Shown here: positions 10,311 to 64,000 of the stretch, piece after piece
Numbering within the stretch: position 1 is the first letter of the stretch
How the letters are laid out: the number at the start of each line of letters is the position of its first letter
Source of the DNA: Hyphomicrobium sp.
GTDB taxonomy: Bacteria; Pseudomonadota; Alphaproteobacteria; Rhizobiales; Hyphomicrobiaceae
Assembly (NCBI GenBank): GCA_022844105.1
Contig: JALHMJ010000011.1
Span: 35,737-99,736 of the forward strand
Direction of reading: 5' to 3'
DNA: 64,000 nt
Notes under the pieces: generated by a model
The model's database searches: none
The model's input: only the letters and a program-made list of their open reading frames with translations
Told to the model about the DNA's origin: nothing
Translations under genes and position numbers: made by a program

Positions 10311-10432
10311 AGAGCCGTTCCTCTTTCGCCGCGAATTATGGCAACAAGCATGGAAATTATTCACCTGCGAGCATCATTTCTACACACGCCAGACCCTTCA
10401 CAGATCCGCCTCAGACGCATTACATTGTTCCG

Positions 10433-11047: not shown

Positions 11048-11102
11048 CGCCACTTTCGTCCACCTGCCACGTCCGCAATTCGTGTTCAGCGCGCCGTGCC
11101 GT

Positions 11103-44996: not shown

Positions 44997-46787
<1,791 letters not shown>

Positions 46788-48576: not shown

Positions 48577-49187
48577 TGGCGCCGGCTCCAGCAGAATCCA
48601 CTCCCAAGCGCCGCTTCGACCATCTAGTCAAGGTCATATCGAGTGAGCGCTTTCTCTCCATGCGAGGGCTCGGCAAAGAGCTTCCCTTTTTCATCTGCCC
48701 TTTTCCAGCTGAAGACGCTGTTGAGATGCGCCGGCAGCAATCGCAGCTCATCAACCAACTCAGCAACCGCGGCCTGTCTGTCCTCCAGCTCGATCTGTAC
48801 GACTTAGCAATAGAAATGCTGACGGAGCGTGGCATCTGGACCGAAGTCTTGGCAACGGAAGCAGGAGTTGCAAAAGAAGAATTGAAGGACCTACTACAGG
48901 GTGTTCTGGACCCCGAGAAACATCTGGTGCCGCTCATCGGCCAAAAAATCGCATCTGGTAGGTTTGACGTTCTGATCATATCGGGAGTCGGAGAGGTCTT
49001 TCCATTTATTCGCTCCCACAACGTGCTGAACAATCTTCAGCGCGTAGCTGGCCGTCTCCCTACCGTGATGTTTTTCCCTGGCACCTACACGCACGGGCTC
49101 GCCACTGGAGCATCTCTCGACCTTTTCGGTCGGCTCCACGACGACAAGTATTACCGGGCCTTCAACATCTTCCACTATGAGGTCTAG
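48576..49187 (+). CDS. brxB: BREX protein BrxB (DUF1788)
   Basis: Second position in the operon. RFDHLVKVISSERFLSMRGLGKELPFFICPFP is DUF1788-like. TAATG overlap with brxA. Confidence 0.85.
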   Translation: MAPAPAESTPKRRFDHLVKVISSERFLSMRGLGKELPFFICPFPAEDAVEMRRQQSQLINQLSNRGLSVLQLDLYDLAIEMLTERGIWTEVLATEAGVAKEELKDLLQGVLDPEKHLVPLIGQKIASGRFDVLIISGVGEVFPFIRSHNVLNNLQRVAGRLPTVMFFPGTYTHGLATGASLDLFGRLHDDKYYRAFNIFHYEV

Positions 49188-49191
49188 CGAT

Positions 49192-52100: not shown

Positions 52101-52761
52101 GGCTCTCTCGGTGCTGGAACAGCAGGCACAAAACCTCGCCTACATCGGGCGCGAAGAAGGCGACCGGCTTCGCGATCTCCTACGTGATCCAAGCTGCATT
52201 CGCGGCCAGGCGATTCAGAAGATCAAATCCGAAGCGGACGCGCTCGAAGGTGCCATCAACACGTACATCGACGGCGAGGTGGCGCGCCTCGAAGCGGAAG
52301 TCGGCGACGCCCGAGCGAAGATCGAGAACCTGCACGATTTCAGCAAGCTCAGTGAGGCTGATCAAGCCACCATTCTTGCGGCGATCGTGGAGGCAGCCGC
52401 GACCGCGAAGACCGGCAGATCCATCGCCTTCATCCGTGAGCGCGAGCAAGCATTCAAGACGGCTCTTTACCCACAGCTTCTATCAAAGGTAGCTGAGCTA
52501 GCGCAGCCCAAGACATCGGCAGCAGCGTCTGACGACTACATAGAACCGCCCTCGTCCTCCATGGGCGGTTTAAGCGAAGGCACACAAATCAAGCCCAAGC
52601 CGAAGGCTGCGGCGCAGCCGACTTATGTGTCAAGCGCCACGGTCAAAGTGCCATTTGCAAAGCCCTACCTCGCAACCGAGACCGATGTGACCGAATACCT
52701 CGATGCGATGCGCGATGCGCTGATTGCCGAGATCCGGATCGGCAAGAGGATCACCGTTTGA
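49192..52761 (+). CDS. brxC: BREX ATPase BrxC/PglY
   Basis: About 1190 aa, P-loop GFFGSGKSHLLKML (around 49386-49412), third position. ATG 49192 has a GAGG SD. An in-frame ATG at 49177 lacks one. Confidence 0.92.
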   Translation: MTTQLKALFEKPINRHIEGVIKADDDAGLRGEIEEYVITNEIEKRLEGLLDAYNNYEGANGVWISGFFGSGKSHLLKMLSLTLENKGVDGINAADAFMAKCDKNEILRGDLKRSTGIQSKSILFNIDQKADVISKDQIDALLGVFQKVFDEMCGYYGKQGHIAKFERDLDSRGQLAAFKDAYARIAGKPWERGREQALLEGPSIASAYSEVSGTDVAAAQGLLSGYRNDYKVSIEDFAQQVKDYIDRQGQNFRLNFFVDEVGQYIADNVKLMTNLQTIAESLNTKCRGRSWIFVTAQEDMNAVIGVMSSRQAHDFSKIQARFANRMPLTSADVAEVIQKRLLMKTDEAVAELSDLYHAHTNNLKTLFDFSDGSVRLQNFKDREHFIQSYPFIPYQYTLFQMAIQGLSQHGAFEGQHSSVGERSMLGVFQDVAIHIADMPVGRLATFDLMFEGIRSALKSTVQQSVQIAERNLNNEFAVRVLKALFLLKYVRPFKATVRNISVLMLDDFDEDVGKLQKRIEESLAMLEQQTYIQRNGDLYEFLTDEEKDIEEEIKAIDVDSADIDRELEQLIFDSVIKSRKIRHDSLAHDYAYSRKLDDRLVGREYELTVNIITPFHEHAGKPDNIRMQSMSRDELAVVLPADARFVADLLTYKRTDKFVKQSRSTTQLPAIERIVSEKGSQNAMRQRELAARAASLIAQSQLFVRGDELDIRSEDAQERLARGFQTLIDKTYVNLGMLKGVTYAETDVGRFLKQAEDGLFGNHAAPLTEAEQELLNFAQSNNRTGIRTTVKAMIEKFERKPYGWPYAAIICNVASLCGRAKLEARADGSVLSNSDLDKALRNTHAQSNIVLEPQVEYSAAQIRQLKEFFSELFDAQPANSDGRLLAKETAERIGQLAAELKSMVGQSARYPFLSQLRPILDKCQEIAGKPHAWYFSDLPKMTDELLEAKEKDFDPIRKFMNGPQKGIYDRALSVLEQQAQNLAYIGREEGDRLRDLLRDPSCIRGQAIQKIKSEADALEGAINTYIDGEVARLEAEVGDARAKIENLHDFSKLSEADQATILAAIVEAAATAKTGRSIAFIREREQAFKTALYPQLLSKVAELAQPKTSAAASDDYIEPPSSSMGGLSEGTQIKPKPKAAAQPTYVSSATVKVPFAKPYLATETDVTEYLDAMRDALIAEIRIGKRITV

Positions 52762-55700
52762 TGGATACCGGCAAGCTCAAGAAATTCGCACAGTCTGCAC
52801 GGCGCACCTTGATGGAGCAGACCGCCATTAAGCTCGGACAGGTGCTGACCAACGGTAGCGCCGCACGGCGCGAACAGCCAAAGGCCGTCAAAGAACTCGA
52901 AGGCCAGATCGCGACCCACGGTAAAGAGCAGGTGATCGAGCGCGTAGCTTACACGTGGTTTAACCGTCTGTCGGCTCTTCGCTTCATGGATGCCAACGGC
53001 CTCAACCGTGTACGCGCTGTGTCACCAGCGCAAGATCAGACGCGGCCAGAGATCCTTTCAGAGGCGGCTGCGGGGGTCGTCGATGATGACATCGTCCCCG
53101 AGCGTATCCGCGAGGACGTGGCCGCGCTACTCGAAGGGCGCACTCCGAGCCGAGACCCGCAGGGTGAAGCCTACCGACTCCTTCTTGTTGCGGTCTGCAA
53201 CCATTGGCATGCGGCGATGCCGTTCATGTTCGAGAAGATTGCAGACTTCACCGAACTTTTGATGCCCGAGGGTCTATTGGCCCCAGATAGCGTGCTCGCT
53301 GAAATGCGCGAGGTGATGACGGATGAGGCCTGCCAGGATGTCGAGATCATCGGCTGGCTCTACCAGTTCTATATCTCCGAAAAGAAGGACCAGGTCTTCG
53401 CGGGTCTCAAGAAGAACGTGAAGATCACGCCCGAGAACATCCCCGCCGCAACTCAGTTATTCACGCCGCACTGGATCGTTCGTTACCTCGTGGAAAACTC
53501 GCTGGGACGACTTTGGCTCTTAAACCGGCCGGGCTCAAAGCTGGCAGGGCGGATGGACTACTACATCGCGTCGGAAGAAGCTGAGATGGACTTTCTCCAC
53601 GTCAGCAAGCCAGAAGATATCCGCATCTGCGATCCAGCGTGCGGATCAGGGCACATGCTGACCTATGCCTTCGATCTTCTCCACGCGATCTACGAAGAAG
53701 AGGGGTATGAAGCTAGCGAGATCCCGGTCCTTATCCTCAAGCACAACCTGACGGGCATCGAGATTGATGACCGGGCGGGGGCTCTCGCAGCCTTCGCGCT
53801 GACCATGAAGGCAGCGGCAAAGCTTGGGCGTCGTCGATTTCTGCGGATCGAGGTGAAGCCGGCCATCATCGTGTTGCAGAACGTAGCTTTTACCCCGGCC
53901 GAAATGCAGGACGTCGCCGCTGTGGTCGGCAAAGACCTGTTCACCGACGCGCTACGCGAGACGCTGATGCAGTTCGAGCAAGCCAAGAACTTCGGCTCGC
54001 TGATCGTGCCGAAACTGCGCGACCCCGCCGAGACGCTTCGGGTGGTTGAGGCGCGGGACTTCGGCTCCGACCTGCTGCTGAAAGAGGTGCAGGCGCGCCT
54101 CGTATCCGTGCTGCGCATGGGCGAGGCGCTGTCGCCCAAGTATCATGTGGTGGTAGCTAACCCACCGTATGCCGGATCAAGGGGGCTTAACGATACCCTA
54201 TCGTCTTGGCTGCAAGTTAATTATCCACGAGGGAAAGCGGATATGTTTTCCGCATTCATTGAACGTGGATTCGGCTTATCAATTAGCGACGGATTCGTTT
54301 CCATGGTTACCATGGAAAGCTGGATGTTTCTTTCGTCTTATTTAAACTTCCGATCCTGGCTGCTTTCAAATGGCACGCTTAACACTCTGCTGCATATGCC
54401 TTATCTCGGCAAAGGCGGAACAAGCATGGGTATCAGCTTCGGAACCGCTGCCTTCGTGCTTCGGAAGAATTACGATCCAGCAAGCAAAGGTGAGTATTGC
54501 TGCGTTCGTTATTTTGAGACAGACGACTTTGGCATTCCGTTAGAGTTTCCGCCAAAAAATGAGAGACGGACGCAAGCATCTACAGAAGATTTTAGCAAAA
54601 TTCCAGGCAGCCCAATTGCCTATTGGGTCAGCGATGGAGTTCTCAAGGCTTTTGAAGAAGGAAAGAGGCTTGATGAGTTGGCGACTACACGTAAGGGCAT
54701 GGTAACCGCACGGAACGAAGTCTATGTGCGAGATTGGCATGAAGTTTCGTCCAATAAGTCGGGGCTGGACAAGCTCAAGGAACGAGAAGCAGCTAAAGCA
54801 TCGGGTTTGAAATGGTTCTCCTATTTGAAGGGTGGCGGCTTCAAGAAATGGTATGGAAACAAATTTGACCTTGTGAACTGGCAGGATGATGGCCACGCCC
54901 TTCAAACCACAATGCACCCCAAAGAAAATCGAGTTTGGGCCACCAATTTCAATTTGGATTACATCTTCAAATCTAATGTGAACTGGGGCGCAGTTACCTC
55001 TGCTGAGTTTTCTGCAAGATTGAGCTTCGGCGGCGAACTCTTCGATGCTGGTGGATCGGCGTGTTTCCCGGAAGGCTGCGCGCCTGAAGTTATTGTTGCG
55101 CTACTCAACTCCAAAATTACTGGCTCTCTTCTGAAAGCGCTAAACCCAACGTTGAATTTTCAAGCAGGCAACATTGCCAGTATTCCAATCGCTTCGGATC
55201 TTAAGGAAGCAGAAATTGAAGCGAACACCAAGTCCTGTATTTCTGCAACAAAGTCAGACTGGGACGCCTATGAAACCTCCTGGGATTTCACCACTCTTCC
55301 GCTGCTCCAACCCCACCATCGCGCCGAGACGCTGGAGGATACCTACACCGCCCTCCGCACCCATTGGCAGGGCATGACGTCCGAGATTCAGCGGTTGGAG
55401 GAAGAGAACAACCGCATCTTCATCGAAGCCTATGGCCTGCAAGACGAGCTTATCCCCGAGGTACCGTTCGAGGAAATCACCCTCACCTGCAACCCCGCCT
55501 ATCGTTATGGCGTGAAGGCAACCGAGGAAGACCGCGAAACCCGCCTGCGCGCCGACACCATGGCCGAGTTCCTCAGCTATGCCGTGGGCTGCATGTTCGG
55601 CCGCTACAGCCTCGACGCGCCGGGCCTGATCCTCGCCAATCAGGGAGAAACGCTGGCCGACTACCTTGCCCGCGTGCCGGAGCCCAGCTTCCTACCCGAC

Positions 55701-56282
55701 GAGGACAACGTCGTCCCCGTGCTGGATGCCGACTGGTTCCCCGACGACATCGTGAACCGCTTCCGCAAGTTCCTGCGCGTGACCTTCGGCGAGGCGCATT
55801 TCCGCGAGAACCTCGCCTTCATCGAGGCGCAAATCGGGGACATTCGGAAGTATTTCACGCGCAACTTCTACGACGACCACGTGAAGCGTTACAAGAAGCG
55901 CCCGATCTACTGGATGTTCTCCAGCCCGAAGGGAAGCTTCAACGCCCTCATATATATGCATCGTTATCGCCCGGATACCGTCTCGATCGTGCTCAACGAC
56001 TATCTCCGCGAGTTCCGCAACAAGCTAATCGGACATCGCAAACAGCTCGAAGCCGCGAGCATCAGCGGCGAGGCCAGCCAGGGCGAGAAGACACGAGCCT
56101 TGAAGGAGATTGAAAAGCTCGGACGGGTGATTGAGGAACTCGATGATTACGAGCGCAACACTCTTTATCCGCTGGCGACGAAGCAGATCGAAATCGACCT
56201 CGACGATGGCGTAAAGGTCAACTACGCGAAATTCGGCAGAGCCCTGGCAACGATCAAGGGCCTCGGCGATGCGGAGGATTGA
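52761..56282 (+). CDS. pglX: BREX N6-adenine DNA methyltransferase PglX
   Basis: About 1170 aa. AdoMet motif ICDPACGSGHML. Catalytic NPPY (VVANPPYAGSRG, 54159-54170). TGATG overlap with brxC. Confidence 0.93.
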   Translation: MDTGKLKKFAQSARRTLMEQTAIKLGQVLTNGSAARREQPKAVKELEGQIATHGKEQVIERVAYTWFNRLSALRFMDANGLNRVRAVSPAQDQTRPEILSEAAAGVVDDDIVPERIREDVAALLEGRTPSRDPQGEAYRLLLVAVCNHWHAAMPFMFEKIADFTELLMPEGLLAPDSVLAEMREVMTDEACQDVEIIGWLYQFYISEKKDQVFAGLKKNVKITPENIPAATQLFTPHWIVRYLVENSLGRLWLLNRPGSKLAGRMDYYIASEEAEMDFLHVSKPEDIRICDPACGSGHMLTYAFDLLHAIYEEEGYEASEIPVLILKHNLTGIEIDDRAGALAAFALTMKAAAKLGRRRFLRIEVKPAIIVLQNVAFTPAEMQDVAAVVGKDLFTDALRETLMQFEQAKNFGSLIVPKLRDPAETLRVVEARDFGSDLLLKEVQARLVSVLRMGEALSPKYHVVVANPPYAGSRGLNDTLSSWLQVNYPRGKADMFSAFIERGFGLSISDGFVSMVTMESWMFLSSYLNFRSWLLSNGTLNTLLHMPYLGKGGTSMGISFGTAAFVLRKNYDPASKGEYCCVRYFETDDFGIPLEFPPKNERRTQASTEDFSKIPGSPIAYWVSDGVLKAFEEGKRLDELATTRKGMVTARNEVYVRDWHEVSSNKSGLDKLKEREAAKASGLKWFSYLKGGGFKKWYGNKFDLVNWQDDGHALQTTMHPKENRVWATNFNLDYIFKSNVNWGAVTSAEFSARLSFGGELFDAGGSACFPEGCAPEVIVALLNSKITGSLLKALNPTLNFQAGNIASIPIASDLKEAEIEANTKSCISATKSDWDAYETSWDFTTLPLLQPHHRAETLEDTYTALRTHWQGMTSEIQRLEEENNRIFIEAYGLQDELIPEVPFEEITLTCNPAYRYGVKATEEDRETRLRADTMAEFLSYAVGCMFGRYSLDAPGLILANQGETLADYLARVPEPSFLPDEDNVVPVLDADWFPDDIVNRFRKFLRVTFGEAHFRENLAFIEAQIGDIRKYFTRNFYDDHVKRYKKRPIYWMFSSPKGSFNALIYMHRYRPDTVSIVLNDYLREFRNKLIGHRKQLEAASISGEASQGEKTRALKEIEKLGRVIEELDDYERNTLYPLATKQIEIDLDDGVKVNYAKFGRALATIKGLGDAED

Positions 56283-56284
56283 CC

Positions 56285-58789
56285 ATGACCGACCGCATCG
56301 CCAAAGCACTGACAAACCTCTTCGACAAACATCGGATCGTATTTTGGTTCGATAGCAAGCGTGAGCTGCGAGACGAGTTTGAAGCTTTGAAACTGAAGGA
56401 CGTACAAAAGGTTGAGATTAACAACAACGAGTTTGGCCTGAAGCACCTCTTGCTACGGCGAGAACCAGATCAGAAGTTTCTGGTCTACAAATACGGTCCT
56501 GAGCCCGATCGCGACATCGACAACTGGCTTCTCGATATCCAACTGTCACACGGGACCTTCCGCACAGACCAAAGCTCGATTTGGCTCAGTGAGCTGGGCC
56601 TCGGCATGCCCTTCGCTGATTTGGTGAAGGCTCACGAGGAGTTTTTCCGGGCAACCAAGCGTATCGAAGCGCTAAAGCGCATTATGAAGCCGGAGGATAC
56701 ACCGGGTGCGCTGCGGATGCGTATGCTCTTCGTCTGCGTCGCAGCTGAAGGAACGTTCGACTCGGTTGTCGAGAATTTGCTGGCAGATCTCGCCGACGAG
56801 CGCGATGACGGTTTAAAGCTCATCCAGCGCTGCCGACTCGATAGCCATCTGTGGCAGCAAATCGAACGGCATTTTGGCTATAAGAGTCAAAAGCCGGATC
56901 TGAGCGACTTCGCCATCGAGCTTTTCAAGTCCTGCTACGCGATGGTATCCGGAGAGAATTCACGGCTGAGTGCCGAGGCGCTCATTTTCTTCCGGCGCTG
57001 GAAGAACAATCGTCACCATGAACTCGCATTCGAGAAGCTATCCGATGTCTACAGTGACATTCTGAACGTTAGGAGCGATGTCAATCAGCGCGATTACCGC
57101 AAGTTGGGCGATACTGACTTTTTCCGCGAGATTGACCGCGAAATCATACGTCAACTTGTGCAGGCTATCGCGACCCAAACGGCGTCTTGGGCCGAAGTTC
57201 AGACGATCATCAAGCAACGTCAAGCAAGCCACTGGTTCGAAGAGTTCGAGCACCTTTACCGGGCAATCGGGTTTGCAGCAGAGTTCTTACAGGCGATGAC
57301 ACAGGTCATCCTGGGCATGACCAGCTTGGCCGAGGGCATCAATCGCTACGCCAGCACTTGGTACCGGATCGACCAGCTTTACAGGAAGTTCGTCTTCCAC
57401 ATGCAAAGATCGGCACAGGCTTCGCTGATGGCAGCTTTGTTTGAACGTATCGAGAATCTCTATGTCAATAACTACCTCTTGAAGCTGAACGATGCTTGGC
57501 AGAAGCATGTCGACGACAGTCCGTCGTGGACGTGCGATGGGGTGCCCTCGCAGCGGCAGTTTTTCGCCAAGCACGTGCGGCCGTTCCGCAGCAAAGAATA
57601 TAAGATCTGCGTCATAATCTCGGACGCTCTGCGTTACGAGATCGCTGATGAGTTGCTCGCAAGTGTTCGAGCACTGGATCGTTACGACGCCGAATTATCT
57701 CCAATGCTCGGCAGTCTTCCGAGCTACACGCAGCTGGGCATGGCATCCCTGCTTCCCAATTCTTCCCTTGCTATTGCGGACAATGACACTGGTACGGTTC
57801 TAGTCGACGGCAATAGCTCACAAGGTCTAGCCAATCGGCAAAAGTTATTAGAGGCCGGGGCTCGCGGGGATGCCACCGCCGCCTTGAAGGCAGAAGATTT
57901 TATGGATTTGAAGGGTGACGATGCGCGTTCACTGGTTCGAGAACACGACATTCTCTACATCTATCACAACCGGATCGACGCCACCGGCGACAAGCTAGTT
58001 TCGGAGGAGAGAGTATTCGAAGCCGTAGACGACACTCTGGAGGAGTTGATTAAGCTCATCAAGAAACTGACGGGCGCAAACGCCAATAACATCATTGTCA
58101 CGGCTGATCACGGGTTCATATACCAGAATCGACCTCTCGAAGAGAGCGACTTTTCTTCTTCCGATGCGATTGGAGGGCAAACACTGTTTCGCGACAGACG
58201 CTTCGTTATCGGGCGTAGCTTCAGGGATCAAGCCGGTTTCAAAAGGTTCTCGGCACGCGACCTTGGGCTAGAAGGAGATGTCGATCTTCTCTTCCCCAAA
58301 TCGATCAATCGACTCCGCCTTAAAGGCTCCGGGAGCAGATACGTTCATGGTGGCGTTTCGCTCCAGGAAGTGGTCGTCCCCGTGGTGACCATAAACAAGA
58401 AGCGGCATAGCGATATAGCATCCGTCGATGTGGAGATCGTTGGAAGCTCCAACCAGACCATAACGTCGGGTCAGCACACGGTCATGCTCTACCAGTCCAT
58501 ACCAGTAACAGACAAGATCCAGCCTCGGCGTCTGCGTGTCGGCATCTATTCCCAGGCGGGCGACCTAATCTCGGACAGTCACGAGATGGCATTCGACTTC
58601 CGTTCAGATAACGCCCGTGAAAGGGAAGTGCGCATCCGGCTTCTTCTCTCCAAACAAGCCGACCAGTACAACGGGCAGGAGGTGATCTTAAAGCTGGAGG
58701 AGCAGCACGGAACAACATCACACTACAAAGAGTATCGAAGCAGCCGCTACATGCTACGCCGCAGCTTCACAAGCGACTTTGACTTCTGA
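56285..58789 (+). CDS. pglZ: BREX alkaline-phosphatase-fold protein PglZ
   Basis: About 835 aa. PglZ-domain region ICVIISDALRYE...TADHGFIY...HGGVSLQEVVVP. GGAGG SD 7 nt upstream. Confidence 0.92.
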   Translation: MTDRIAKALTNLFDKHRIVFWFDSKRELRDEFEALKLKDVQKVEINNNEFGLKHLLLRREPDQKFLVYKYGPEPDRDIDNWLLDIQLSHGTFRTDQSSIWLSELGLGMPFADLVKAHEEFFRATKRIEALKRIMKPEDTPGALRMRMLFVCVAAEGTFDSVVENLLADLADERDDGLKLIQRCRLDSHLWQQIERHFGYKSQKPDLSDFAIELFKSCYAMVSGENSRLSAEALIFFRRWKNNRHHELAFEKLSDVYSDILNVRSDVNQRDYRKLGDTDFFREIDREIIRQLVQAIATQTASWAEVQTIIKQRQASHWFEEFEHLYRAIGFAAEFLQAMTQVILGMTSLAEGINRYASTWYRIDQLYRKFVFHMQRSAQASLMAALFERIENLYVNNYLLKLNDAWQKHVDDSPSWTCDGVPSQRQFFAKHVRPFRSKEYKICVIISDALRYEIADELLASVRALDRYDAELSPMLGSLPSYTQLGMASLLPNSSLAIADNDTGTVLVDGNSSQGLANRQKLLEAGARGDATAALKAEDFMDLKGDDARSLVREHDILYIYHNRIDATGDKLVSEERVFEAVDDTLEELIKLIKKLTGANANNIIVTADHGFIYQNRPLEESDFSSSDAIGGQTLFRDRRFVIGRSFRDQAGFKRFSARDLGLEGDVDLLFPKSINRLRLKGSGSRYVHGGVSLQEVVVPVVTINKKRHSDIASVDVEIVGSSNQTITSGQHTVMLYQSIPVTDKIQPRRLRVGIYSQAGDLISDSHEMAFDFRSDNAREREVRIRLLLSKQADQYNGQEVILKLEEQHGTTSHYKEYRSSRYMLRRSFTSDFDF

Positions 58790-58800
58790 GGAGCGGAATC

Positions 58801-60864
58801 ATGAGCACACTAGACGATAAAATCAATGAACGCTTCCCAGGGCTCGTCGTCCGCAAGGACCTCGTGAAGGCCGTAAAGGGCAATGCCATCGTTCCCACCT
58901 ACGTGCTGGAGTATCTGCTCGGGCAATACTGCGCGACGAACGATGAAGCGAGCATCAAGTCTGGCATTGAGACGGTCAAGGAAATCCTGAGCCGTCACTA
59001 CGTCCACCGGAACGAAGCCGGGCTGGTCCGCTCCAACATCCGTGAAAAAGGACGTTACAAAGTCATCGACAATATCAGTGTGGCGCTCAACGACAAAAGC
59101 GACACCTACGAGGCGACCTTTGCCAATCTTGGCATAAAAAAAGTACTTGTCGATGCCACCACCGTCAAGGCTCACCCAAAGCTTCTCGTGAGTGGCGTCT
59201 GGTGCATAGCAGACATTGAGTACGAGGCCAGCGAAGATAAGAATGTCACCCCGTGGATTCTAAGCAGCCTCAAGCCGATCCAGCTGTCGCACTTTGACTT
59301 CGACGCTTATCTTCAGGCACGCTCCGCGTTTACCACCGATGAGTGGATTGATCTGCTGATCCAGAGCCTCGGCTTCAACCCGGAGCTGTTTGGGAGGCGA
59401 AGTAAGTTTATCCAACTCATGCGGCTCGTGCCGTTCGTCGAGCGCAACTACAATCTCATTGAGCTTGGCCCGAAAGGAACGGGCAAGTCACACATCTATT
59501 CCGAGTTCTCACCACATGGAATTCTGATCTCGGGCGGCGAGGTTAGTGTTCCCAAGCTATTCGTCAACAATAGTAGCGGCAAGATCGGTCTAGTCGGCTA
59601 CTGGGACGTTGTTGCGTTTGACGAGTTTGCCGGCAAGCAAAAGCGCGTCGATAAAGCCCTTGTCGACATCATGAAGAATTATATGGCCAACAAGACGTTT
59701 TCTCGTGGAGTGGAAACACTCGGTGCCGAAGCTTCAATGGTCTTTGTTGGCAACACGAAGCACAACGTTCCCTACATGCTGAAGCATTCTGATTTCTTCG
59801 ATGAACTCCCAGACAAGTACTACGACTCCGCTTTCATCGATCGTCTCCACGCCTACATTCCCGGGTGGGAAACCGAAGTGATCCGCGGTGAAATGTTCTC
59901 CACCGGATATGGGTTCGTCGTCGACTACCTAGCCGAGATATTGCGGCATCTGCGCAATCAGGATTTTTCAGATCGCTACAAAGGCACGTTCGAACTGTCG
60001 TCTGATATCTCGACGCGTGACCGTGATGGCATTAACAAAACCTTCTCCGGTCTCATGAAGACTCTGTTCCCCTCTGGGGACGCCGAACCTCAGGAACTCG
60101 AAGAACTGCTCAGATTCGCAATCGAGGGTCGGAAGCGGGTCAAGGATCAGCTAAAGCGCATTGATGCGACATACCCTGACACCGATTTCTACTATCAGGA
60201 TGTCGAAGGAAACAAAGTGGGTGTGACCACACTCGAAGAGGCGGAGTATCCGAGCTATTATCACCGTAGAGCGATGTCGAAGGAATTGGACAGTGGACCA
60301 GAAGAACATTCCTCGGTAGCGCCCAGCGGCAAAGGCGATCGGCAGTTGAGCCAGGACTCGAAGTCGTCTGCTAGCACTCCCAAGCCGGGACACTTCACAT
60401 TTTCTGAAAACCAGAAGGGCGTTTCTTATGATGGTTTGCTCGGTCCCTACTTGACCGGTGCCCGGCAGATCACCCTGACCGATCCCTATCTTCGCCTGTT
60501 CTACCAGCTGCGTAACCTAATGGAGTTTATCGAAACTGTAGCAAAGCGAAAAGCACCGGAAGATGAAGCTGCCGTTCACGTCGTAACAGTCGAAGACGTA
60601 TCAAAACCGGACCAGCAACGCGAGCAGCTTGAACGTATTCAAGAGGCGAGCAGGTCGGCAGGCATTGCCTTCACATGGGAGTTCGATAACTCCGGGACAA
60701 TTCATGCTCGGCACATTGTGACTGATACGGGGTGGAAGATCTCACTGGATCGAGGGCTGGACGTATTTCAGCGCTACGAAATGAACGATACCTTCAGCCT
60801 CGCCAATAGAATGCAAGAGTTCCGTCCATGCAAGGCTTTTGAAATGACGAGCATTCGACTGTAG
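58801..60864 (+). CDS. brxL: BREX Lon-like protease BrxL
   Basis: 687 aa. LVVRKDLVKAVKGNAIVPTYVLEYLLGQYC N-terminus, P-loop GPKGTGKSH (59467-59490). Last gene of the BREX-1 order. Confidence 0.92.
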   Translation: MSTLDDKINERFPGLVVRKDLVKAVKGNAIVPTYVLEYLLGQYCATNDEASIKSGIETVKEILSRHYVHRNEAGLVRSNIREKGRYKVIDNISVALNDKSDTYEATFANLGIKKVLVDATTVKAHPKLLVSGVWCIADIEYEASEDKNVTPWILSSLKPIQLSHFDFDAYLQARSAFTTDEWIDLLIQSLGFNPELFGRRSKFIQLMRLVPFVERNYNLIELGPKGTGKSHIYSEFSPHGILISGGEVSVPKLFVNNSSGKIGLVGYWDVVAFDEFAGKQKRVDKALVDIMKNYMANKTFSRGVETLGAEASMVFVGNTKHNVPYMLKHSDFFDELPDKYYDSAFIDRLHAYIPGWETEVIRGEMFSTGYGFVVDYLAEILRHLRNQDFSDRYKGTFELSSDISTRDRDGINKTFSGLMKTLFPSGDAEPQELEELLRFAIEGRKRVKDQLKRIDATYPDTDFYYQDVEGNKVGVTTLEEAEYPSYYHRRAMSKELDSGPEEHSSVAPSGKGDRQLSQDSKSSASTPKPGHFTFSENQKGVSYDGLLGPYLTGARQITLTDPYLRLFYQLRNLMEFIETVAKRKAPEDEAAVHVVTVEDVSKPDQQREQLERIQEASRSAGIAFTWEFDNSGTIHARHIVTDTGWKISLDRGLDVFQRYEMNDTFSLANRMQEFRPCKAFEMTSIRL

Positions 60865-60894
60865 CGCAATGACGCGGCGCTGCTCCATGTGCGG

Positions 60895-63800
60895 TCATAT
60901 TGGCAAGGCGTTCAAGTTCGCCGGGGCAGTTAGTACTTTGATTTGATCGTTGCTTGAATTTCCAATTCGAGTTCCCTGAGCGAGCTCCACAAACCTGCAG
61001 AACGCATTCACCAGCTGTATCTGGCGCGGTGTCCGGCACTCGGCTTCGAGCAGCTGAGGGGAAGCCACGACAATCGAGATGCACTTTGCCCGCGACGTCG
61101 CGACATTCAGCCGATTCAGGCTGTAGAGGAACTCCATGCCGCGCGGCGCATCGGCGTGACTGGATGTGGCCATGGAGTAGATAGCGATGGGAGCTTCCTG
61201 CCCCTGGAATTTATCGACGGTTCCGACGCGAGCTCCCGGAATGCGCTGCTGAATCTCAAAGACCTGCGCGTTGTAGGGCGTGATGATGACAATGTCGTCC
61301 AAGGTGAGAGCGGCCTCGTGGCCGTCCCTATCGATCCACTGAGGGCTCGTGCCAAGGATGCTTGCAACAAGCGAACGAACAGCCTCCGCCTCTTCGGGCG
61401 AACAATTCTGATTTCCGGTATGCGAAACGGGAAGAAATCGAAGGCCCGCGCCACTGACCGGCCCATCTGACTTTACCGTCTGAATATCGAGCCCATCCTT
61501 CGAGGCCAGCTTACCATCATAGAACAGCTCTGACGTGAAAGCCGTAATGGACGGGTGAAGACGCCAGGTCTCAGCGAGGAACAGCCCCTTGTCGGCCGGC
61601 ACTGTATGCGCACCATCGAGAATGTAGGATAGCGCCGAAACATCGGTCTCCTCGGGATGTGTGCCTTTCATGGGCTGATCAAGTTGCTGCGGATCGCCGA
61701 GGAGAACGACGGTCTTCGCCGACTGCGAGACGGCCAGCACATTGGCCAGCGACATCTGGGCCGCCTCATCGACAAACAACACGTCGAGACGCTCAAGCGC
61801 TTCTGGCCGCGACCAAAGCCATGCCGTGCCGCCGCCAACCTGGATGTTTGAGCCCAGCGCTTGGAAGAAGACGGGATTGTCTTTCACGAGAGTCAGCATC
61901 GGCAGCGCAGGGCTTGGATCGGGCGTTTTGTGAGCGCAGTCGATCGTCATATTCTGCTTGGTGGCTTCCTTGATCACGCCATCGATCAAATTGCGAATGA
62001 CCTTATGACTGTTACCCGTGATCCCGACGGTCTTTCCCTGACGGACCAGTTCGCAGATCATTTGCGCGCCGGTAAAGGTTTTGCCGGCTCCCGGTGGTCC
62101 CTGGATTGGCAGAACGCCTCCGGCGAGATGCTGAGCCAGTCTGACGGCAGCCTCCGTGGCTGTTTCGCCATCGCATTTGAGCGGCTGCCCGCCTGTGCGC
62201 GGCGGAGATTTGAGCAAGAGATCCCGCGCGGCCTGATATTGGCCACTGCCGGAGAGGCCATGCTCGACTACATATTCAGCAAGGCGGGCCAGCGCTTCAG
62301 AAATCTCTTCGGTGCCGACGTGATCATGTTCGAAGACAGCGGGCGGATGGGTTCCCGCGAAGGCCCCACTCTTCTTGATATCGATCGTGCGCTTCTCAAA
62401 ATCGATTGCGCAAACCTCACCGACCTGACCACCGCCTGGAGCCGAGACCTTCTTATCTGTTCGGATATCAGTGTCCTGTGGCGGGAAGCTGTAGCGATGT
62501 ATGGGATTGCGCGCTTTGCTGCCCGGCGGGTGTGGAATAGTAATCACGAACTGCAAACCGCCCAATCCGGCACGCTCATCCAGCAGATCCTCAGAATCCA
62601 AATCGCGAAGCCGGAAATACTCCCACCACGTGGCCTTCTCCTCGCGCCGATGGAAGTCGAGAATATTGGCCAGAATCCATCGCCCATGCTGTTCGGGTGT
62701 TCGCTCGGCCGGGTCGATGGGCACATCGGCGGTTAGGCTCTCGATCAGCGGCTCAATCCGCTGCAACCAAGCGGTTATTTTTTCCTGTGGCGCTCCATCT
62801 TGGCCGGGGGGCGGCCGAGCCACGTCAGTACCATTGGCAATCTGCTCAGACCGTAAGCGCTCCAGCCAATCACGCAAACTGGAAGCAGAGCGGCAATCAT
62901 CCTTATTGTAGGCGCGAACGGCCTCTTTGGTATCCTCCGGGATGCCTTGTATGTCACCCAGTTCAAGCCCGGCTTGGAGCGTTGCTAATGCGGTGCTGGC
63001 GTCGGTCAGTGGCATGTCGCGTACAAAGTCGAAGAAGGGCTCCAGCTGCTTGATTGAGTAACTCTCGACGCTGGCGCGAAGTGCGCGGCGAACCACCTGA
63101 TAAAGATCGACGAAGAGCCCGGCGCGGAGCATCCGATCGATTTCTTCTTCGCGCGTTGCATAACGCCCCATCAACCGCTTGAGCGCGGCTGGTTCGTAGG
63201 GCGCGTAATGATAGATGTGAAGGCCAGGGTGCTGTTCCCGGCGCGCCATGATGAAATCGACAAAATCTTCAAAGGCCTTCTTCTCATCAGCGCGCGAGAA
63301 CGCCCAATCACACTGATAGTGATCAACGCCATCGTCGCTGTAGAGATAGCCGAACAGGTATTCGATCCCATGCTCGCCAACAAACGGATCTCCCTCGAAG
63401 TCTAGGAAGACATCGCCTTGAGATGGTTCCGGCAAGCACGTGAGCCCAAACCCTGCTTCGACCGGCAGCACTTCGAACTGGCGCTCACCAGTCAGTCGTG
63501 CATCCAGCTGAAGACTCGCCTGCTCACGGATGCGCGTATAACTTTCGGCTGAGCCTCTATCGGGCTTCCACCCCAGAGGAAGGAGAACGGCCGCTAGTTG
63601 GGCCAGGGTTGAAACGCCGCGCGATTTGAGTTCCGCCGTTTGAATTTTGCTGATGCCGGCTACGAGACACAAATGGTCGTCATCTCTTCGCCGCTTATCG
63701 CAAGTCTGCCGCCAGCGGCAGATATCGCAATGCTCTTTTGGCTCGGGGTAGACATCGCCAGTGTCAGCCAAGGCAATGGCACCAGAGAGCCCGCGCTTTA

Positions 63801-64000
63801 CTTTGCGGAAGTAGGCCGCACAATCAGCGTAGCGGAACCGCTGCGGGACAAAGTCCGACCAGGGCGCAACAACATACATGTACTCCGGTTCGACGCCTTG
63901 AGCAGCCGTTAGAAGGTCGGCATAAAGGCAGAGCTGCAGAACAGCACCCGCCTTCGTTTCACGGGCCAGCTTGGTGTCGATGACTTCGTAAGACCAGGCA
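60895..64000 (-). CDS. Cas4/RecB-like Fe-S nuclease + RNase-H-fold exonuclease + Upf1/DNA2-like SF1 helicase fusion (N-terminus beyond the window)
   Basis: The frame stays open upstream of the ORF-track ATG (63879) to nt 64000 (…YEVIDTKLARETKAGAVLQLCLYADLL, an ExK-type PD-(D/E)xK segment). CDICRWRQTC (63700-63729). DVFLDFEGDPF...EYLFGY (around 63382-63414). Helicase motifs GPPGAGKTF (around 62069-62100), FVDEAAQMS (around 61753-61776), LLGDPQQL, WRLHPSI, DKFQGQEAP, LNVATSRAK. Confidence 0.85.
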   Translation of the reverse strand, partial: AWSYEVIDTKLARETKAGAVLQLCLYADLLTAAQGVEPEYMYVVAPWSDFVPQRFRYADCAAYFRKVKRGLSGAIALADTGDVYPEPKEHCDICRWRQTCDKRRRDDDHLCLVAGISKIQTAELKSRGVSTLAQLAAVLLPLGWKPDRGSAESYTRIREQASLQLDARLTGERQFEVLPVEAGFGLTCLPEPSQGDVFLDFEGDPFVGEHGIEYLFGYLYSDDGVDHYQCDWAFSRADEKKAFEDFVDFIMARREQHPGLHIYHYAPYEPAALKRLMGRYATREEEIDRMLRAGLFVDLYQVVRRALRASVESYSIKQLEPFFDFVRDMPLTDASTALATLQAGLELGDIQGIPEDTKEAVRAYNKDDCRSASSLRDWLERLRSEQIANGTDVARPPPGQDGAPQEKITAWLQRIEPLIESLTADVPIDPAERTPEQHGRWILANILDFHRREEKATWWEYFRLRDLDSEDLLDERAGLGGLQFVITIPHPPGSKARNPIHRYSFPPQDTDIRTDKKVSAPGGGQVGEVCAIDFEKRTIDIKKSGAFAGTHPPAVFEHDHVGTEEISEALARLAEYVVEHGLSGSGQYQAARDLLLKSPPRTGGQPLKCDGETATEAAVRLAQHLAGGVLPIQGPPGAGKTFTGAQMICELVRQGKTVGITGNSHKVIRNLIDGVIKEATKQNMTIDCAHKTPDPSPALPMLTLVKDNPVFFQALGSNIQVGGGTAWLWSRPEALERLDVLFVDEAAQMSLANVLAVSQSAKTVVLLGDPQQLDQPMKGTHPEETDVSALSYILDGAHTVPADKGLFLAETWRLHPSITAFTSELFYDGKLASKDGLDIQTVKSDGPVSGAGLRFLPVSHTGNQNCSPEEAEAVRSLVASILGTSPQWIDRDGHEAALTLDDIVIITPYNAQVFEIQQRIPGARVGTVDKFQGQEAPIAIYSMATSSHADAPRGMEFLYSLNRLNVATSRAKCISIVVASPQLLEAECRTPRQIQLVNAFCRFVELAQGTRIGNSSNDQIKVLTAPANLNALPI

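What the first reader, a model, noticed from the sequence alone, without database searches (positions are those of the whole stretch)
60895..64000. Giant three-module nuclease/exonuclease/helicase gene docked tail-to-tail on BREX
**What the sequence shows**
- One ORF of more than 1030 aa, still open at the window edge, carries three modules.
- Module 1 is a PD-(D/E)xK nuclease with a Cas4/AddB-style Cx2Cx5C iron-sulfur motif (CDICRWRQTC).
- Module 2 is an RNase-H-fold, PolB-exonuclease-like segment (DVFLDFEGDPF...EYLFGY). Together with module 1 this is the architecture I associate with TM0106-family RecB-like nucleases.
- Module 3 is a complete Upf1/DNA2-type SF1 helicase (motifs I, II, III, IV, V and VI are all readable).

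**Why it matters**
- The gene sits inside the same tRNA-borne island as BREX and is convergent on brxL, with only 30 bp between the stop codons.
- Single-polypeptide nuclease-helicases are known as stand-alone defence proteins (for example Nhi-type).
- I do not recognise this particular three-module arrangement as a named system or as a known BREX accessory. It is the best candidate in the window for an uncharacterised defence or anti-MGE effector.
Basis: partly seen in the sequence, partly recalled or inferred. Interest (0 to 1): 0.72.

Follow-up and report, generated by a model that had tools for sequence, protein, structure and literature searches.

The report
Island-borne Dna2-like nuclease–exonuclease–helicase gene
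The gene next to BREX is a real, intact member of a very large but experimentally unstudied bacterial family (named "TM0106 family RecB-like putative nuclease") that fuses two DNA-cutting enzymes to a DNA-unwinding motor; its relatives sit in defence islands and mobile elements, so it is a good candidate stand-alone immunity gene, but it is neither a new architecture nor a BREX part.

Summary
A minus-strand ORF (stop at 60895-60897) stays open for 1034 codons to the window edge. It carries a Cas4/Dna2-like Fe-S PD-(D/E)xK nuclease, a PolB-exo-like RNase H-fold exonuclease (PF13482) and an Upf1/Dna2-type SF1B helicase.

A 97%-identical full-length homologue (1160 aa) supplies the missing 126 N-terminal residues. 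Catalytic residues of all three modules are invariant across 40 homologues down to 37% identity.

The architecture is not new. It is the long form of COG2251/TIGR03491, was described in 2014, and has thousands of about 1135-aa members in more than 12 phyla and on 69 plasmids. I found no experimental study.

There is no conserved partner gene. BREX adjoins it only in this one element, so it is not a BREX accessory.

All 11 Pfam-annotated neighbourhoods (49-97% identity) hold restriction or defence systems, or integrase, relaxase or anti-restriction genes. A WYL regulator precedes the gene in about 8 loci.

The closest solved fold is Dna2. The closest characterised bacterial analogue is Geobacillus Bad.

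Best reading: a stand-alone, DNA-end-dependent nuclease-helicase that defends against phages or other mobile DNA. This rests on context and is untested. Interest is moderate.

The parts
60895..64000 (-). Nuclease-exonuclease-helicase gene of the TIGR03491/COG2251 long form. It is 3'-complete (stop at 60895-60897) and its 5' end is cut by the window edge, with about 378 bp (126 codons) missing.
   Evidence: Window 55257-64000 aligns at 94% DNA identity to L001 19122-10378, where the full gene spans 10001-13483.
63682..63999 (-). C-terminal part of the Cas4/Dna2-like Fe-S PD-(D/E)xK nuclease domain. It holds motif III EVIDTK (63970-63987), QLCLY (63922-63936) and Cx2Cx5C (63700-63729).
   Evidence: Pfam PDDEXK_1 is weak, and cas4 is below cut-off. 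D134, K136, Q148, Y152, C217, C220 and C226 are invariant in 40 homologues. Foldseek on the N-terminal model hits the Dna2 nuclease and type I-C Cas4.
63592..63666 (-). Helix-hairpin-helix-like segment LVAGISKIQTAELKSRGVSTLAQLA between the nuclease and the exonuclease. A DNA-binding role is inferred.
   Evidence: The AF2 model shows two short helices at P0001 residues 244-252 and 258-262. L238, V239 and A240 are invariant in the 46-sequence alignment of closer relatives (A3); A240 is near-invariant in A1. There is no HMM hit, so this is my reading of the sequence.
62863..63411 (-). RNase H-fold, PolB-exo-like 3'-5' exonuclease domain (PF13482). It holds ExoI DFE (within 63382-63414), the ExoII-like HYAPYE (63172-63219) and ExoIII YNKDD (62893-62910).
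   Evidence: Pfam RNase_H_2 scores E=1.5e-19 over window aa 197-379. D326, E328, H390, E395, D424, Y490 and D494 are invariant. Weak Foldseek hits go to family-B polymerase exo domains, Rrp6, DnaQ and RNase T.
62323..62790 (-). Long-helix 'stalk' and beta-barrel preceding the helicase, a feature of Upf1/Dna2-like helicases. It includes the conserved WWEYFRL (62608-62628).
   Evidence: AF2 secondary structure shows helices at 532-591 and strands at 604-683 in P0001 numbering. The full-length Foldseek alignment to Dna2 5EAN supports this. The stalk/OB feature of the family is described in PMC11090510.
60973..62136 (-). SF1B Upf1/Dna2-type helicase core with motifs I-VI. Walker A GPPGAGKT lies at 62077-62100.
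   Evidence: Pfam AAA_12 scores 4.3e-25, AAA_11 3.1e-10 and AAA_30 1.1e-8. PDB sequence hits are Setx, Upf1, IGHMBP2, Sen1 and DNA2. All motif residues are invariant.
60865..60894 (.). 30-bp spacer between the convergent stop codons of brxL and the nuclease-helicase gene.
   Evidence: No consensus terminator or promoter was found in 60600-61200.
47791..60864 (+). Neighbour, not a component: a complete type 1 BREX operon (brxA, brxB, brxC, pglX, pglZ, brxL).
   Evidence: PADLOC and Pfam matches. BREX is absent from all other loci that carry a homologue.
44997..46787 (.). Island boundary features: tRNA-Met (44997-45073, plus strand) overlapped by the 3' end of a large serine recombinase gene (45033-46787, minus strand).
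   Evidence: GC drops after about 46 kb.

Best explanation
**What it is (shown)**
- The gene encodes a full-length, apparently active member of the long form of COG2251/TIGR03491.
- It is a single polypeptide of about 1160 aa with six parts, from N- to C-terminus:
  1. a Cas4/Dna2-like PD-(D/E)xK nuclease held by a four-Cys Fe-S cluster;
  2. an HhH-like linker;
  3. a PolB-exo-like DEDDy-type exonuclease;
  4. a helical stalk;
  5. a beta-barrel;
  6. an Upf1/Dna2-type SF1B helicase.
- It is an accessory, horizontally mobile, single-gene unit. It travels in defence islands, integrative elements and plasmids.
- In this window it has simply landed tail-to-tail beside BREX.

**What it does (inferred)**
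- It is most likely a stand-alone effector against phages or other mobile DNA that destroys DNA with free ends or flaps.
- The exonuclease would trim the 3'-ended strand and expose a 5' tail.
- The SF1B motor would load on that tail and move 5'->3'.
- The Fe-S nuclease would thread and cut the 5' strand, as in Dna2 and Bad.
- Together this makes one chain do the dual-nuclease, end-dependent degradation that AddAB or RecBCD do as complexes.
- Intact circular host DNA would be spared because it lacks ends.
- In some loci, expression is probably gated by upstream WYL or HTH/ImmA-type regulators.
For: **Identity and integrity**
- TIGR03491 scores 216.6 bits against a cut-off of 97.45. RNase_H_2, AAA_11, AAA_12 and AAA_30 all match.
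- In 40 homologues of 37-71% identity, every catalytic residue is invariant:
  - Fe-S and nuclease: C21, C217, C220, C226, D113, D134, K136, Q148, Y152.
  - Exonuclease: D326, E328, E395, Y490, D494.
  - Helicase: motifs I-VI.
- All of those that lie within the window are present in this copy.

**Fold**
- The AF2 model has pLDDT 85 and pTM 0.76.
- The best PDB match is the Dna2 nuclease-helicase, aligned over about 1200 columns at E=2e-24.
- The N-terminal half matches the Dna2 nuclease, type I-C Cas4, Exo5 and ACE1.

**Accessory and mobile**
- No neighbour family is shared by more than 8 of 86 loci, and there is almost no synteny even within genera.
- Homologues lie on 69 plasmids, 26 of them conjugative.

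**Context, 11 of 11 Pfam-annotated loci**
- BREX.
- Integrase, relaxase and CRISPR I-E.
- Res/RE_endonuc and Schlafen-AlbA.
- WYL regulator, Dcm/Vsr and McrBC.
- GmrSD and HsdR.
- Type III RM, Abi_C and an SMC-like ATPase.
- Type I RM and AbiE.
- Mrr-helicase, Dcm/Vsr and VapE/AlpA.
- Type I RM, SIR2-HerA and ParE.
- CBASS and ArdA.
- ArdC with an SNF2/Mtase/Res cluster.

**Wider family**
- Among 113 nearest neighbours from diverse phyla, PADLOC at E<1e-10 finds WYL in 6, plus SngA/SngC, HmaC, JetD, GajA, Hhe, MkoA, a type IV REase and several PDC candidates.

**Mechanistic precedents**
- Bad is a 5'-3' helicase and threading ssDNA endonuclease (PMC7430649).
- ACE1 threads ssDNA through a Cas4-fold channel.
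- In Druantia III a 3' exonuclease creates the 5' overhang that loads a helicase-nuclease.
- Nhi is a single-protein nuclease-helicase defence.
Against: - There is no experimental evidence for any member: none for defence, for substrate, or for DNA versus RNA.
- The enrichment near defence genes is qualitative. My far-flank 'control' (6-10 kb away) also contained defence genes, so it gave no clean baseline.
- In the wider family some nearest neighbours are ordinary genes, such as rpoC, MFS transporters, M28 peptidases and RmuC.
- No PADLOC model covers the whole protein.
- The order of events is pure inference: exonuclease first, then helicase loading. Nuclease polarity and self/non-self discrimination are also inferred.
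- The promoter and start of the gene lie outside the window.
Confidence: 0.55

Rival explanations
1. It is a housekeeping DNA-repair or recombination enzyme. It would act as a single-chain end-resection or flap-processing factor, a bacterial Dna2 or AddAB substitute that merely happens to lie next to an island.
For: - The best structural match is Dna2.
- The biochemically similar Bad has no proven defence role.
- The family is broad, spanning more than 12 phyla.
- RmuC neighbours occur in 3 of 113 cases, and other housekeeping genes also appear.
Against: - There is no conserved neighbourhood and almost no synteny, even within Amycolatopsis or the mycobacteria.
- All 11 Pfam-annotated contexts are defence or mobile-element regions.
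- Homologues lie on 69 plasmids.
- Here the gene sits in a low-GC stretch beyond a tRNA-linked recombinase.
- WYL regulators lie upstream in several loci.
Confidence: 0.15
2. It serves the mobile element that carries it rather than the host. It might compete against rival plasmids or ICEs, process transfer or replication intermediates, or help element maintenance.
For: - Relaxase/MobC, RepB-primase, VapE, ArdA, ArdC and integrase genes lie nearby in several loci.
- In one plasmid the gene lies about 650 bp from repC of the repABC replication module.
- 26 of the 69 plasmids are conjugative.
Against: - Defence genes are themselves typical cargo of such elements, so these contexts do not separate the two ideas.
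- There is no fixed position relative to transfer or replication genes.
- Many loci lack any recognisable element gene.
- The gene is rare in viral contigs, and there it sits near contig ends.
Confidence: 0.2
3. It is a BREX accessory or effector. The nuclease-helicase would supply the missing DNA-degrading step to the adjacent BREX system.
For: - It is immediately adjacent, 30 bp from brxL.
- The arrangement is kept in L001 and L002.
- BREX is known to host accessory genes (my background knowledge).
Against: - L001 and L002 are the same element, at 94-95% DNA identity.
- BREX proteins are found in none of the other about 90 loci then held.
- The orientation is convergent, so the gene is a separate transcription unit.
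- There are no PADLOC BREX-model hits.
Confidence: 0.05
4. It targets RNA rather than DNA. An Upf1-like helicase would feed phage transcripts to the nucleases.
For: - The helicase is closest in sequence to the RNA helicases Setx, Upf1, IGHMBP2 and Sen1.
- Upf1-like helicases in CoCoNuT systems are predicted to act on RNA.
- PADLOC's best hits are the Mokosh helicases.
Against: - Both nuclease modules belong to DNA-acting clades: Cas4/Dna2/AddB and PolB-exo.
- The closest full-length fold is the DNA enzyme Dna2.
- Bad acts on DNA.
Confidence: 0.05

Closest known systems
COG2251 / NCBIfam TIGR03491 'TM0106 family RecB-like putative nuclease' (long form with C-terminal helicase)
   Same: - It is a member. 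The HMM score is well above the cut-off.
- It has the same Cas4-like nuclease plus PF13482 exonuclease. The 'tandem AAA domains' were noted for COG2251 in 2014.
- Its length and architecture match thousands of database proteins.
   Different: - Nothing structural differs.
- The family itself has no characterised member in the literature I could search.
Eukaryotic Dna2 nuclease-helicase (PDB 5EAN/5EAX/5EAW)
   Same: - It has an N-terminal Fe-S PD-(D/E)xK nuclease, a stalk and barrel, and a C-terminal SF1B helicase in one chain.
- It is the best Foldseek hit for both the whole model and the N-terminal half.
   Different: - Dna2 has no RNase H-fold exonuclease.
- Sequence similarity is marginal, E=5.6e-5 and confined to the helicase C-terminus.
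- TM-scores are only 0.33-0.38.
- Dna2 is essential and universal in eukaryotes, whereas this gene is sporadic and mobile.
Bad, bacterial DNA2-like helicase-nuclease of Geobacillus stearothermophilus (PMC7430649)
   Same: - It has an Fe-S RecB-family nuclease, a roughly 650-aa central region and an SF1B helicase, with similar spacing between nuclease motif III and Walker A (D150 to K815 in Bad, D134 to K766 here).
- It is sporadic in distribution and lies next to a restriction-type methyltransferase.
- Its role is unknown, and its authors suspected a restriction function.
   Different: - Bad's central domain had no detectable homology, and the protein was annotated as an AAA+ ATPase. Here the centre is a readily detected PF13482 exonuclease, and the protein is named by TIGR03491.
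- I could not obtain the Bad sequence, so homology of the central parts is untested.
Nhi (SERP2475), single-protein nuclease-helicase immunity of staphylococci
   Same: It is a stand-alone defence protein with an N-terminal PD-(D/E)xK nuclease and an SF1B helicase, and it shows 3'-5' exonuclease activity.
   Different: - Nhi's nuclease is HsdR-like and has no Fe-S cluster.
- Its helicase is DUF2075/Dda-like, not AAA_11/AAA_12.
- It has no RNase H-fold domain.
- Nhi does not appear among the PADLOC hits at E<=0.01.
AddAB / RecBCD / AdnAB helicase-nuclease complexes
   Same: - The logic is the same: a motor plus one nuclease for each strand, acting from DNA ends.
- The AddB and AdnAB nucleases share the Cas4-type 'iron staple'.
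   Different: - Those are multi-subunit complexes with SF1A and/or two motors, and both nucleases are RecB-type.
- Here there is one chain, one SF1B motor and one DEDD exonuclease.
- The recD model hit is far below its cut-off, 20 bits against 310.
- This is a 'works like' comparison only.
Druantia III DruH/DruE
   Same: A 3' exonuclease makes a 5' overhang that recruits a helicase-nuclease to degrade forked or replicating phage DNA. These are the same three activities proposed here.
   Different: It consists of two proteins from unrelated families. The PADLOC DruK hit here is weak and covers only the nuclease.

Membership tests
TIGR03491 / COG2251 (TM0106 family RecB-like nuclease) | Whole-protein HMM score above the curated cut-off | tested here: met
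   The score is 216.6 bits against a cut-off of 97.45, E=6.3e-64. Model positions 108-462 are matched, and the remainder lies beyond the window edge.
TIGR03491 / COG2251 (TM0106 family RecB-like nuclease) | Cas4/DUF83-like PD-(D/E)xK nuclease with four Cys | tested here: met
   D113, D134-x-K136, Q148...Y152, C21 and C217-x2-C220-x5-C226 are invariant. Three of the Cys and motif III lie in the window. The fold matches Cas4 and Dna2.
TIGR03491 / COG2251 (TM0106 family RecB-like nuclease) | PF13482 RNase H-like (PolB-exo-related) domain following the nuclease | tested here: met
   RNase_H_2 scores 71 bits against a cut-off of 22. The family description is in PMC3985635.
Upf1/Dna2-like SF1B helicases | AAA_11 and AAA_12 domains with motifs I-VI | tested here: met
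   AAA_12 scores 88.9 bits and AAA_11 40.7 bits, both against a cut-off of 27. Motif residues are invariant. PDB hits are Upf1, IGHMBP2, Sen1 and DNA2.
Upf1/Dna2-like SF1B helicases | 5'->3' translocation on ssDNA or RNA | not testable with these tools
   This needs biochemistry.
Dna2 / Bad-type nuclease-helicases | Fe-S RecB-family nuclease at the N-terminus and an SF1B helicase at the C-terminus of one chain, with a stalk and barrel between | tested here: met
   This holds at model level, and the Fe-S cluster is inferred from four invariant Cys.
Dna2 / Bad-type nuclease-helicases | Sequence-level orthology to Dna2, or to the Bad-specific central domain | tested here: inconclusive
   For Dna2, only a marginal hit in the helicase C-terminus was found (E=5.6e-5), and an extra exonuclease domain is present. 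The Bad sequence could not be retrieved.
BREX accessory genes | Recurrent co-occurrence with BREX, or co-orientation within the operon | tested here: not met
   BREX proteins are found only in L001/L002, the same element, among the about 95 loci then held. The gene is convergent on brxL. No BREX model hits it.
Nhi | HsdR-like PD-(D/E)xK nuclease plus a DUF2075 helicase | tested here: not met
   Pfam gives AAA_11, AAA_12 and AAA_30 and no DUF2075. Nhi does not appear among the PADLOC hits.
Mokosh (MkoA/MkoC) | Full-length match to an Mko model, with a PLD nuclease fused or adjacent | tested here: not met
   The hits cover only the helicase: protein aa 716-1004 against model positions 767-1094 of 1112. 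No PLD partner is present in the window.
Known anti-phage defence systems in general | Experimentally shown protection against phage or plasmid | not testable with these tools
   No paper on this family was found.

The most novel reading that the evidence does not exclude
The long-form TM0106/COG2251 proteins may be a widespread single-gene immune system that nobody has yet recognised. Each would be a portable, single-chain equivalent of AddAB/RecBCD. A DEDD 3'-5' exonuclease and a Dna2-like Fe-S 5'-strand nuclease would ride on one SF1B motor and erase any DNA with a free end. Such a system could also serve as a back-up when phages inhibit the host's own end-degrading complex. Bad would then be a divergent relative of the same class.
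Probability: 0.35. Interest if true: 0.7.

Novelty: new variant of a known kind. Interest (0 to 1): 0.45.

Why it matters
If the family is a defence system, it would add a very common and phylogenetically broad single-gene module to the known arsenal. The family has thousands of members in at least a dozen phyla and on conjugative plasmids.

It would also offer a simple model for how one polypeptide coordinates two nucleases of opposite polarity with a helicase. That question is currently studied in the multi-subunit RecBCD, AddAB and AdnAB complexes and in Dna2.

It could give the orphan enzyme Bad a biological role. For annotation, it shows that 'TM0106 family RecB-like putative nuclease' hides a complete helicase and a second nuclease.

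If it is not a defence gene, it is an ordinary, already-catalogued hypothetical enzyme next to BREX.

Tried and rejected
- **Text searches.** 'TM0106' returns only corrosion-standard papers. 'PF13482', 'COG2251' and 'TIGR03491' give classification papers only. Combined Pfam names give nothing.
- **Solved relatives by sequence.** Only the helicase part matches PDB entries, and nothing matches the first roughly 740 aa.
- **Phage carriage.**
  - PHROGs and GenBank phages show only helicase-level similarity.
  - IMG/VR has about 8 near-full-length copies among 2.9 million contigs, mostly at contig ends.
  - I therefore rejected the idea that it is a phage gene.
- **Conserved partner gene.**
  - All-against-all BLAST of 1228 neighbour ORFs found none; the maximum was 8 of 86 loci, a WYL regulator.
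  - A sacsin-like GHKL ATPase directly upstream is shared only by L010 and L096.
- **Far-flank PADLOC control.**
  - The set also contained CBASS, Hma and Mokosh genes and kinases.
  - The tool reports only family counts.
  - No quantitative enrichment could be derived.
- **Small tblastn panel.** A panel of integrases and RM proteins run against the 80 genome loci was too insensitive to be informative.
- **Island borders and signals.** The attR search in L001 was negative. A terminator/promoter scan of the 30-bp junction was also negative.
- **Bad sequence.** Retrieval from the paper's supplement failed because the figures are images.
- **ACE1 and CoCoNuT CnuH.** I considered and rejected both as the same family. 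ACE1 is a 278-aa nuclease only, and CnuH has no nuclease of this type.

Full report

Yes. On the minus strand, window 60895-63999 translates to 1034 sense codons ending in a single stop at 60895-60897, with no upstream stop before the window edge. brxL ends at 60864, so exactly 30 bp (60865-60894) separate the two convergent stop codons.

- CDICRWRQTC lies at 63700-63729.
- DVFLDFEGDPF lies at 63382-63414, and EYLFGY at 63346-63363.
- Walker A GPPGAGKT lies at 62077-62100.
- Motifs II to VI are DEAAQ, GDPQQL, WRLHP, GTVDKFQGQE and LNVATSRA.

Profile searches put this far beyond chance. NCBIfam TIGR03491 ("TM0106 family RecB-like putative nuclease") scores E=6.3e-64, 216.6 bits against a curated cut-off of 97.45. 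Pfam gives RNase_H_2 (PF13482) at 1.5e-19, AAA_12 at 4.3e-25, AAA_11 at 3.1e-10 and a weak PDDEXK_1.

The TIGR03491 match starts at model position 108, so the N-terminus is cut off by the window. A 97%-identical protein from a metagenome (P0001, 1160 aa) shows that 126 residues are missing. The window aligns to that contig at 94% DNA identity right up to the edge.

**2. Anatomy**

I aligned 40 full-length homologues with 37-71% identity to P0001 (alignment A1, mean column identity 46%). The invariant columns are exactly the catalytic residues of three enzymes:
- **Nuclease:** Cys21 plus Cys217-x2-Cys220-x5-Cys226 form the Cas4/AddB/Dna2 "iron staple". Also invariant are Asp113, Asp134-x-Lys136 and Gln148...Tyr152, the RecB-family PD-(D/E)xK motifs.
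- **Exonuclease:** Asp326-x-Glu328, His390/Glu395, Asp424 and Tyr490-x3-Asp494 make up a DEDDy-type set.
- **Helicase:** all SF1 motifs are invariant, including GPPGxGK766, D870EAxQ, GDPxQL, R939, GTxDxxQG and RxNVAxSR.

All three activities are therefore under purifying selection, and the window's copy keeps every one of these residues that falls inside it.

An AlphaFold2 model of P0001 from a 46-sequence alignment is confident (pLDDT 85.3, pTM 0.76). It gives this layout in P0001 numbering:

| Residues | Part |
|---|---|
| 1-232 | nuclease |
| 238-262 | helix-hairpin-helix-like pair |
| about 300-515 | RNase H-fold domain |
| 530-600 | long helices |
| 604-683 | beta-barrel |
| 690-1135 | two RecA-like helicase domains |

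Foldseek against the PDB puts mouse Dna2 nuclease-helicase first (5EAN, E=2.3e-24, aligned over about 1200 columns). IGHMBP2, Upf1, Setx/Sen1, ZNFX1 and nsp13 follow.

A separate model of residues 1-525 (pLDDT 88) matches the Dna2 nuclease, type I-C Cas4 (8D3L, TM 0.60 on the target), Cas4-Cas1 fusions, Exo5 and ACE1. For the second domain it matches, more weakly, family-B polymerase exonuclease domains, Rrp6, DnaQ, RNase T and ExoI.

**3. How common is it, and is it already known?**

It is very common. A word-indexed search of 5.8 billion proteins returned more than 7,600 hits at E<1e-10. The best 120 are all about 1130-1160 aa with the same Pfam set. Several are named by NCBI "TM0106 family RecB-like putative nuclease" or by JGI "predicted RecB family nuclease".

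An exhaustive HMMER search of 1.84 billion cluster representatives gave 3,454 representatives at E<1e-30. About nine in ten of the best 150 are near full-length, at 38-63% identity.

A scan of one genome per species found at least 400 relatives. The 80 best span the following groups:
- Alpha-, Beta- and Gammaproteobacteria
- Acidobacteriota
- Chloroflexota
- Actinomycetota, including Mycolicibacterium and Amycolatopsis
- Bacteroidota
- Verrucomicrobiota
- Planctomycetota
- Myxococcota
- Thermotogae MAGs
- Pelagibacteraceae

Sixty-nine plasmids carry it, 26 of them conjugative.

The architecture is in print. Majorek et al. 2014 place PF13482 members of COG2251 among predicted 3'-5' exonucleases related to the PolB exonuclease. 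[quoted passage not shown] Steczkiewicz et al. 2012 group COG2251 with Cas4.

So the arrangement is a catalogued but uncharacterised family, not an unrecognised one. I found no experimental paper on it.

**4. Context: core gene, BREX accessory or island cargo?**

*BREX accessory.* tblastn with the six BREX proteins of the window against all loci then held found BREX only in L001 and L002. These are the same element as the window. None of the about 90 other loci has BREX. With the convergent orientation and the absence of any BREX-model hit, a functional BREX link is unlikely.

*Conserved partner.* I called ORFs in 86 loci (1228 neighbours) and clustered them by BLAST.
- The most widespread neighbour family occurs in only 8 loci. 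It is a roughly 350-aa WYL/WCX regulator lying directly upstream in five of them.
- Synteny between loci is almost nil, even within Amycolatopsis or among mycobacteria.

*What the neighbours are.* For 11 homologues of 49-97% identity, pre-computed Pfam annotation of +/-10 kb was available. All 11 are defence or mobile-element regions:

| Locus (call) | Neighbours |
|---|---|
| L001 (13) | BREX |
| L003 (18) | tyrosine integrase, AlpA-type HTH, relaxase/MobC, CRISPR-Cas I-E |
| L006 (19) | Res/RE_endonuc, Schlafen-AlbA, IS elements |
| L007 (20) | integrase, RepB primase, WYL regulator, Dcm/Vsr, McrBC |
| L008 (27) | GmrSD, HsdR, kinase/PP2C/FHA |
| L010 (28) | type III RM, Abi_C, sacsin-like ATPase, SMC-like ATPase, integrase |
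| L091 (56) | tail-to-tail with a type I RM that also holds AbiE and DUF4276/ATPase genes |
| L092 (57) | Dcm/Vsr, Mrr-helicase, HATPase, ScoMcrA-SBD, VapE/AlpA |
| L093 (100) | type I RM, HNH, integrase, ParE/Phd, SIR2-HerA |
| L094 (101) | relaxase, ArdA, CBASS cyclase and patatin, HTH/ImmA |
| L095 (102) | ArdC, SNF2/DUF4391/Mtase/Res |

In the wider family (33-60% identity), the 113 nearest neighbours of 65 loci matched 97 different Pfam families.
- These include ordinary genes such as rpoC, MFS transporters and peptidases.
- At E<1e-10 they also match PADLOC models for WYL (6), Shango SngA/SngC, HmaC, JetD, GajA, Hhe, MkoA, a type IV REase and several PDC candidates.

I tried to obtain a baseline from genes 6-10 kb away in the same loci. 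That set also contained CBASS, Hma and Mokosh genes and kinases, and the tool gives only per-family counts. The enrichment therefore remains qualitative.

The gene is essentially absent from phage genomes. It is rare in IMG/VR, where the few full-length copies lie near contig ends.

In the window itself the gene lies beyond a tRNA-Met and a serine recombinase, in DNA of lower GC than the flanking chromosome. The far border of the island is not visible.

**5. Most likely mechanism**

*Shown:* three intact catalytic modules of defined families in one chain, a Dna2-like overall design, and an accessory, mobile, defence-island distribution.

*Inferred from characterised relatives:*
- Cas4-family and Dna2 nucleases thread ssDNA through a narrow channel braced by the Fe-S cluster. 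This is seen in the ACE1 structure and in Dna2 and Bad.
- SF1B Upf1/Dna2-type motors move 5'->3'. Bad prefers 5' flaps or overhangs and cuts the translocated strand.
- PF13482 belongs to the 3'-5' exonuclease clade.

Putting these together, the protein can act on both strands of a DNA end:
1. The exonuclease removes the 3'-ended strand.
2. This exposes or lengthens a 5' tail.
3. The motor loads on that tail.
4. The Fe-S nuclease chops the tail as it is reeled in.

This is the division of labour of AddAB or RecBCD compressed into one chain. It is also the same sequence of events just described for Druantia III, where the DruH exonuclease makes the 5' overhang that activates the DruE helicase-nuclease. 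Nhi shows that a single nuclease-helicase polypeptide can be a complete defence system.

Discrimination would rest on free ends or replication intermediates, which a circular chromosome lacks. The WYL or HTH/ImmA regulators upstream in a minority of loci suggest inducible expression. I rate the identity near-certain, the defence or anti-MGE role about 0.6, and the specific order of events about 0.35. Taken together as one statement, these give the 0.55 entered as the confidence of the best explanation.

**6. Rivals**

- **Housekeeping end-resection or flap enzyme (0.15).** This fits the Dna2 fold and some neighbours, but not the distribution.
- **Serves the carrying element, for example inter-element competition (0.2).** This is hard to separate from defence on present data.
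- **BREX accessory (0.05).** The lack of any recurrence argues against it.
- **RNA targeting (0.05).** The helicase's nearest sequence relatives are RNA helicases, but both nucleases are of DNA-acting clades.

**7. Comparison and verdict**

It is a member of TIGR03491/COG2251 and of the Upf1/Dna2-like SF1B helicases, since the defining features were tested and met. It works like Dna2, Bad, Nhi and AddAB but is not a member of those families.
- Dna2 similarity is at fold level only, and an extra exonuclease domain is present.
- Nhi uses different nuclease and helicase families.
- Bad's central domain could not be compared because its sequence was not retrievable.

It is not a Mokosh or BREX component.

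The finding is a correct and careful reading of the sequence, and its defence hypothesis survives the context test. Its novelty was overstated, however. This is a new variant of the known nuclease-helicase kind, belonging to a large, already named, experimentally untouched family. Interest is moderate (0.45). It would rise if a phage or plasmid phenotype were shown.

Noticed in passing
window 52758-56282 (pglX), especially 54171-55256: Between the window and the otherwise 94-99% identical element in L001, BrxC, PglZ and BrxL are 97-99% identical, but PglX is only 72%. The DNA alignment breaks between 54170 and 55257. This looks like a swapped target-recognition segment in the BREX methyltransferase, meaning a change of specificity between near-identical BREX operons.
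   Followed up: partly
window 44997-45073 and 45033-46787: The 3' end of a 585-aa large serine recombinase gene (Resolvase, Recombinase and Zn_ribbon_recom domains) overlaps the 3' part of tRNA-Met. This suggests integration into the tRNA gene. No second copy of the tRNA 3' end was found in the window or in the 10 kb beyond it (L001).
   Followed up: partly
L007 8163-9152; also L027, L037, L038, L053, L062, L070: A WYL/WCX-domain regulator of about 350 aa (BrxR/CapW-like) is the only recurrent neighbour. It occurs in 8 of 86 loci and sits directly upstream of the nuclease-helicase gene in 5 of them. An HTH plus Peptidase_M78 (ImmA-like) pair lies within 2.5 kb upstream in L008 and L094, directly upstream only in L094.
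   Followed up: partly
L010 6903-10004 and L096 4885-7989: A roughly 1033-aa sacsin-like GHKL ATPase lies immediately upstream of the gene in two unrelated replicons, a Roseiarcaceae chromosome and an Ensifer conjugative plasmid. The two copies are 32% identical over their full length (E=8e-126). There is a 4-bp overlap in L010 and an 11-bp gap in L096. This may be a two-gene sub-type. It was not seen in the other loci.
   Followed up: partly
L056, L061, L064, L070, L007: McrB/McrC-like pairs recur next to or near the gene in 4-6 loci, at positions +1 and +2 in L056 and L064. SNF2-family helicases related to the one in L096 occur within 10 kb in about 8 loci.
   Followed up: no
L001 1-10000 (DNA that continues beyond the window's right edge): Upstream of the gene lie five small to medium ORFs on the same strand with no Pfam, PADLOC or PHROG match. 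Beyond them are a 1040-aa CHAT-domain protein on the opposite strand and a fragment similar to a phage DNA methyltransferase (phrog_799, PADLOC mad2). The island therefore continues for at least 10 kb.
   Followed up: partly
window 47791-48576 (brxA): The longest ORF for brxA is 261 aa, but the BrxA domain starts at residue 62. The true start is probably an internal codon, which would leave about 1.2 kb of unassigned DNA between the recombinase gene and brxA.
   Followed up: no
window 60000-64000 versus 48000-60000: GC of the nuclease-helicase gene (0.55-0.58) lies between that of BREX (0.52-0.54) and the chromosome (0.60-0.67). The island may be a mosaic of separately acquired pieces.
   Followed up: no
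P0001 residues 1114 and 1127 (window about 60997-61038): Two further Cys near the C-terminus (EAECRTPRQIQLVNAFCRF) are nearly invariant across the family. They lie outside any recognised motif, and their role is unknown.
   Followed up: no
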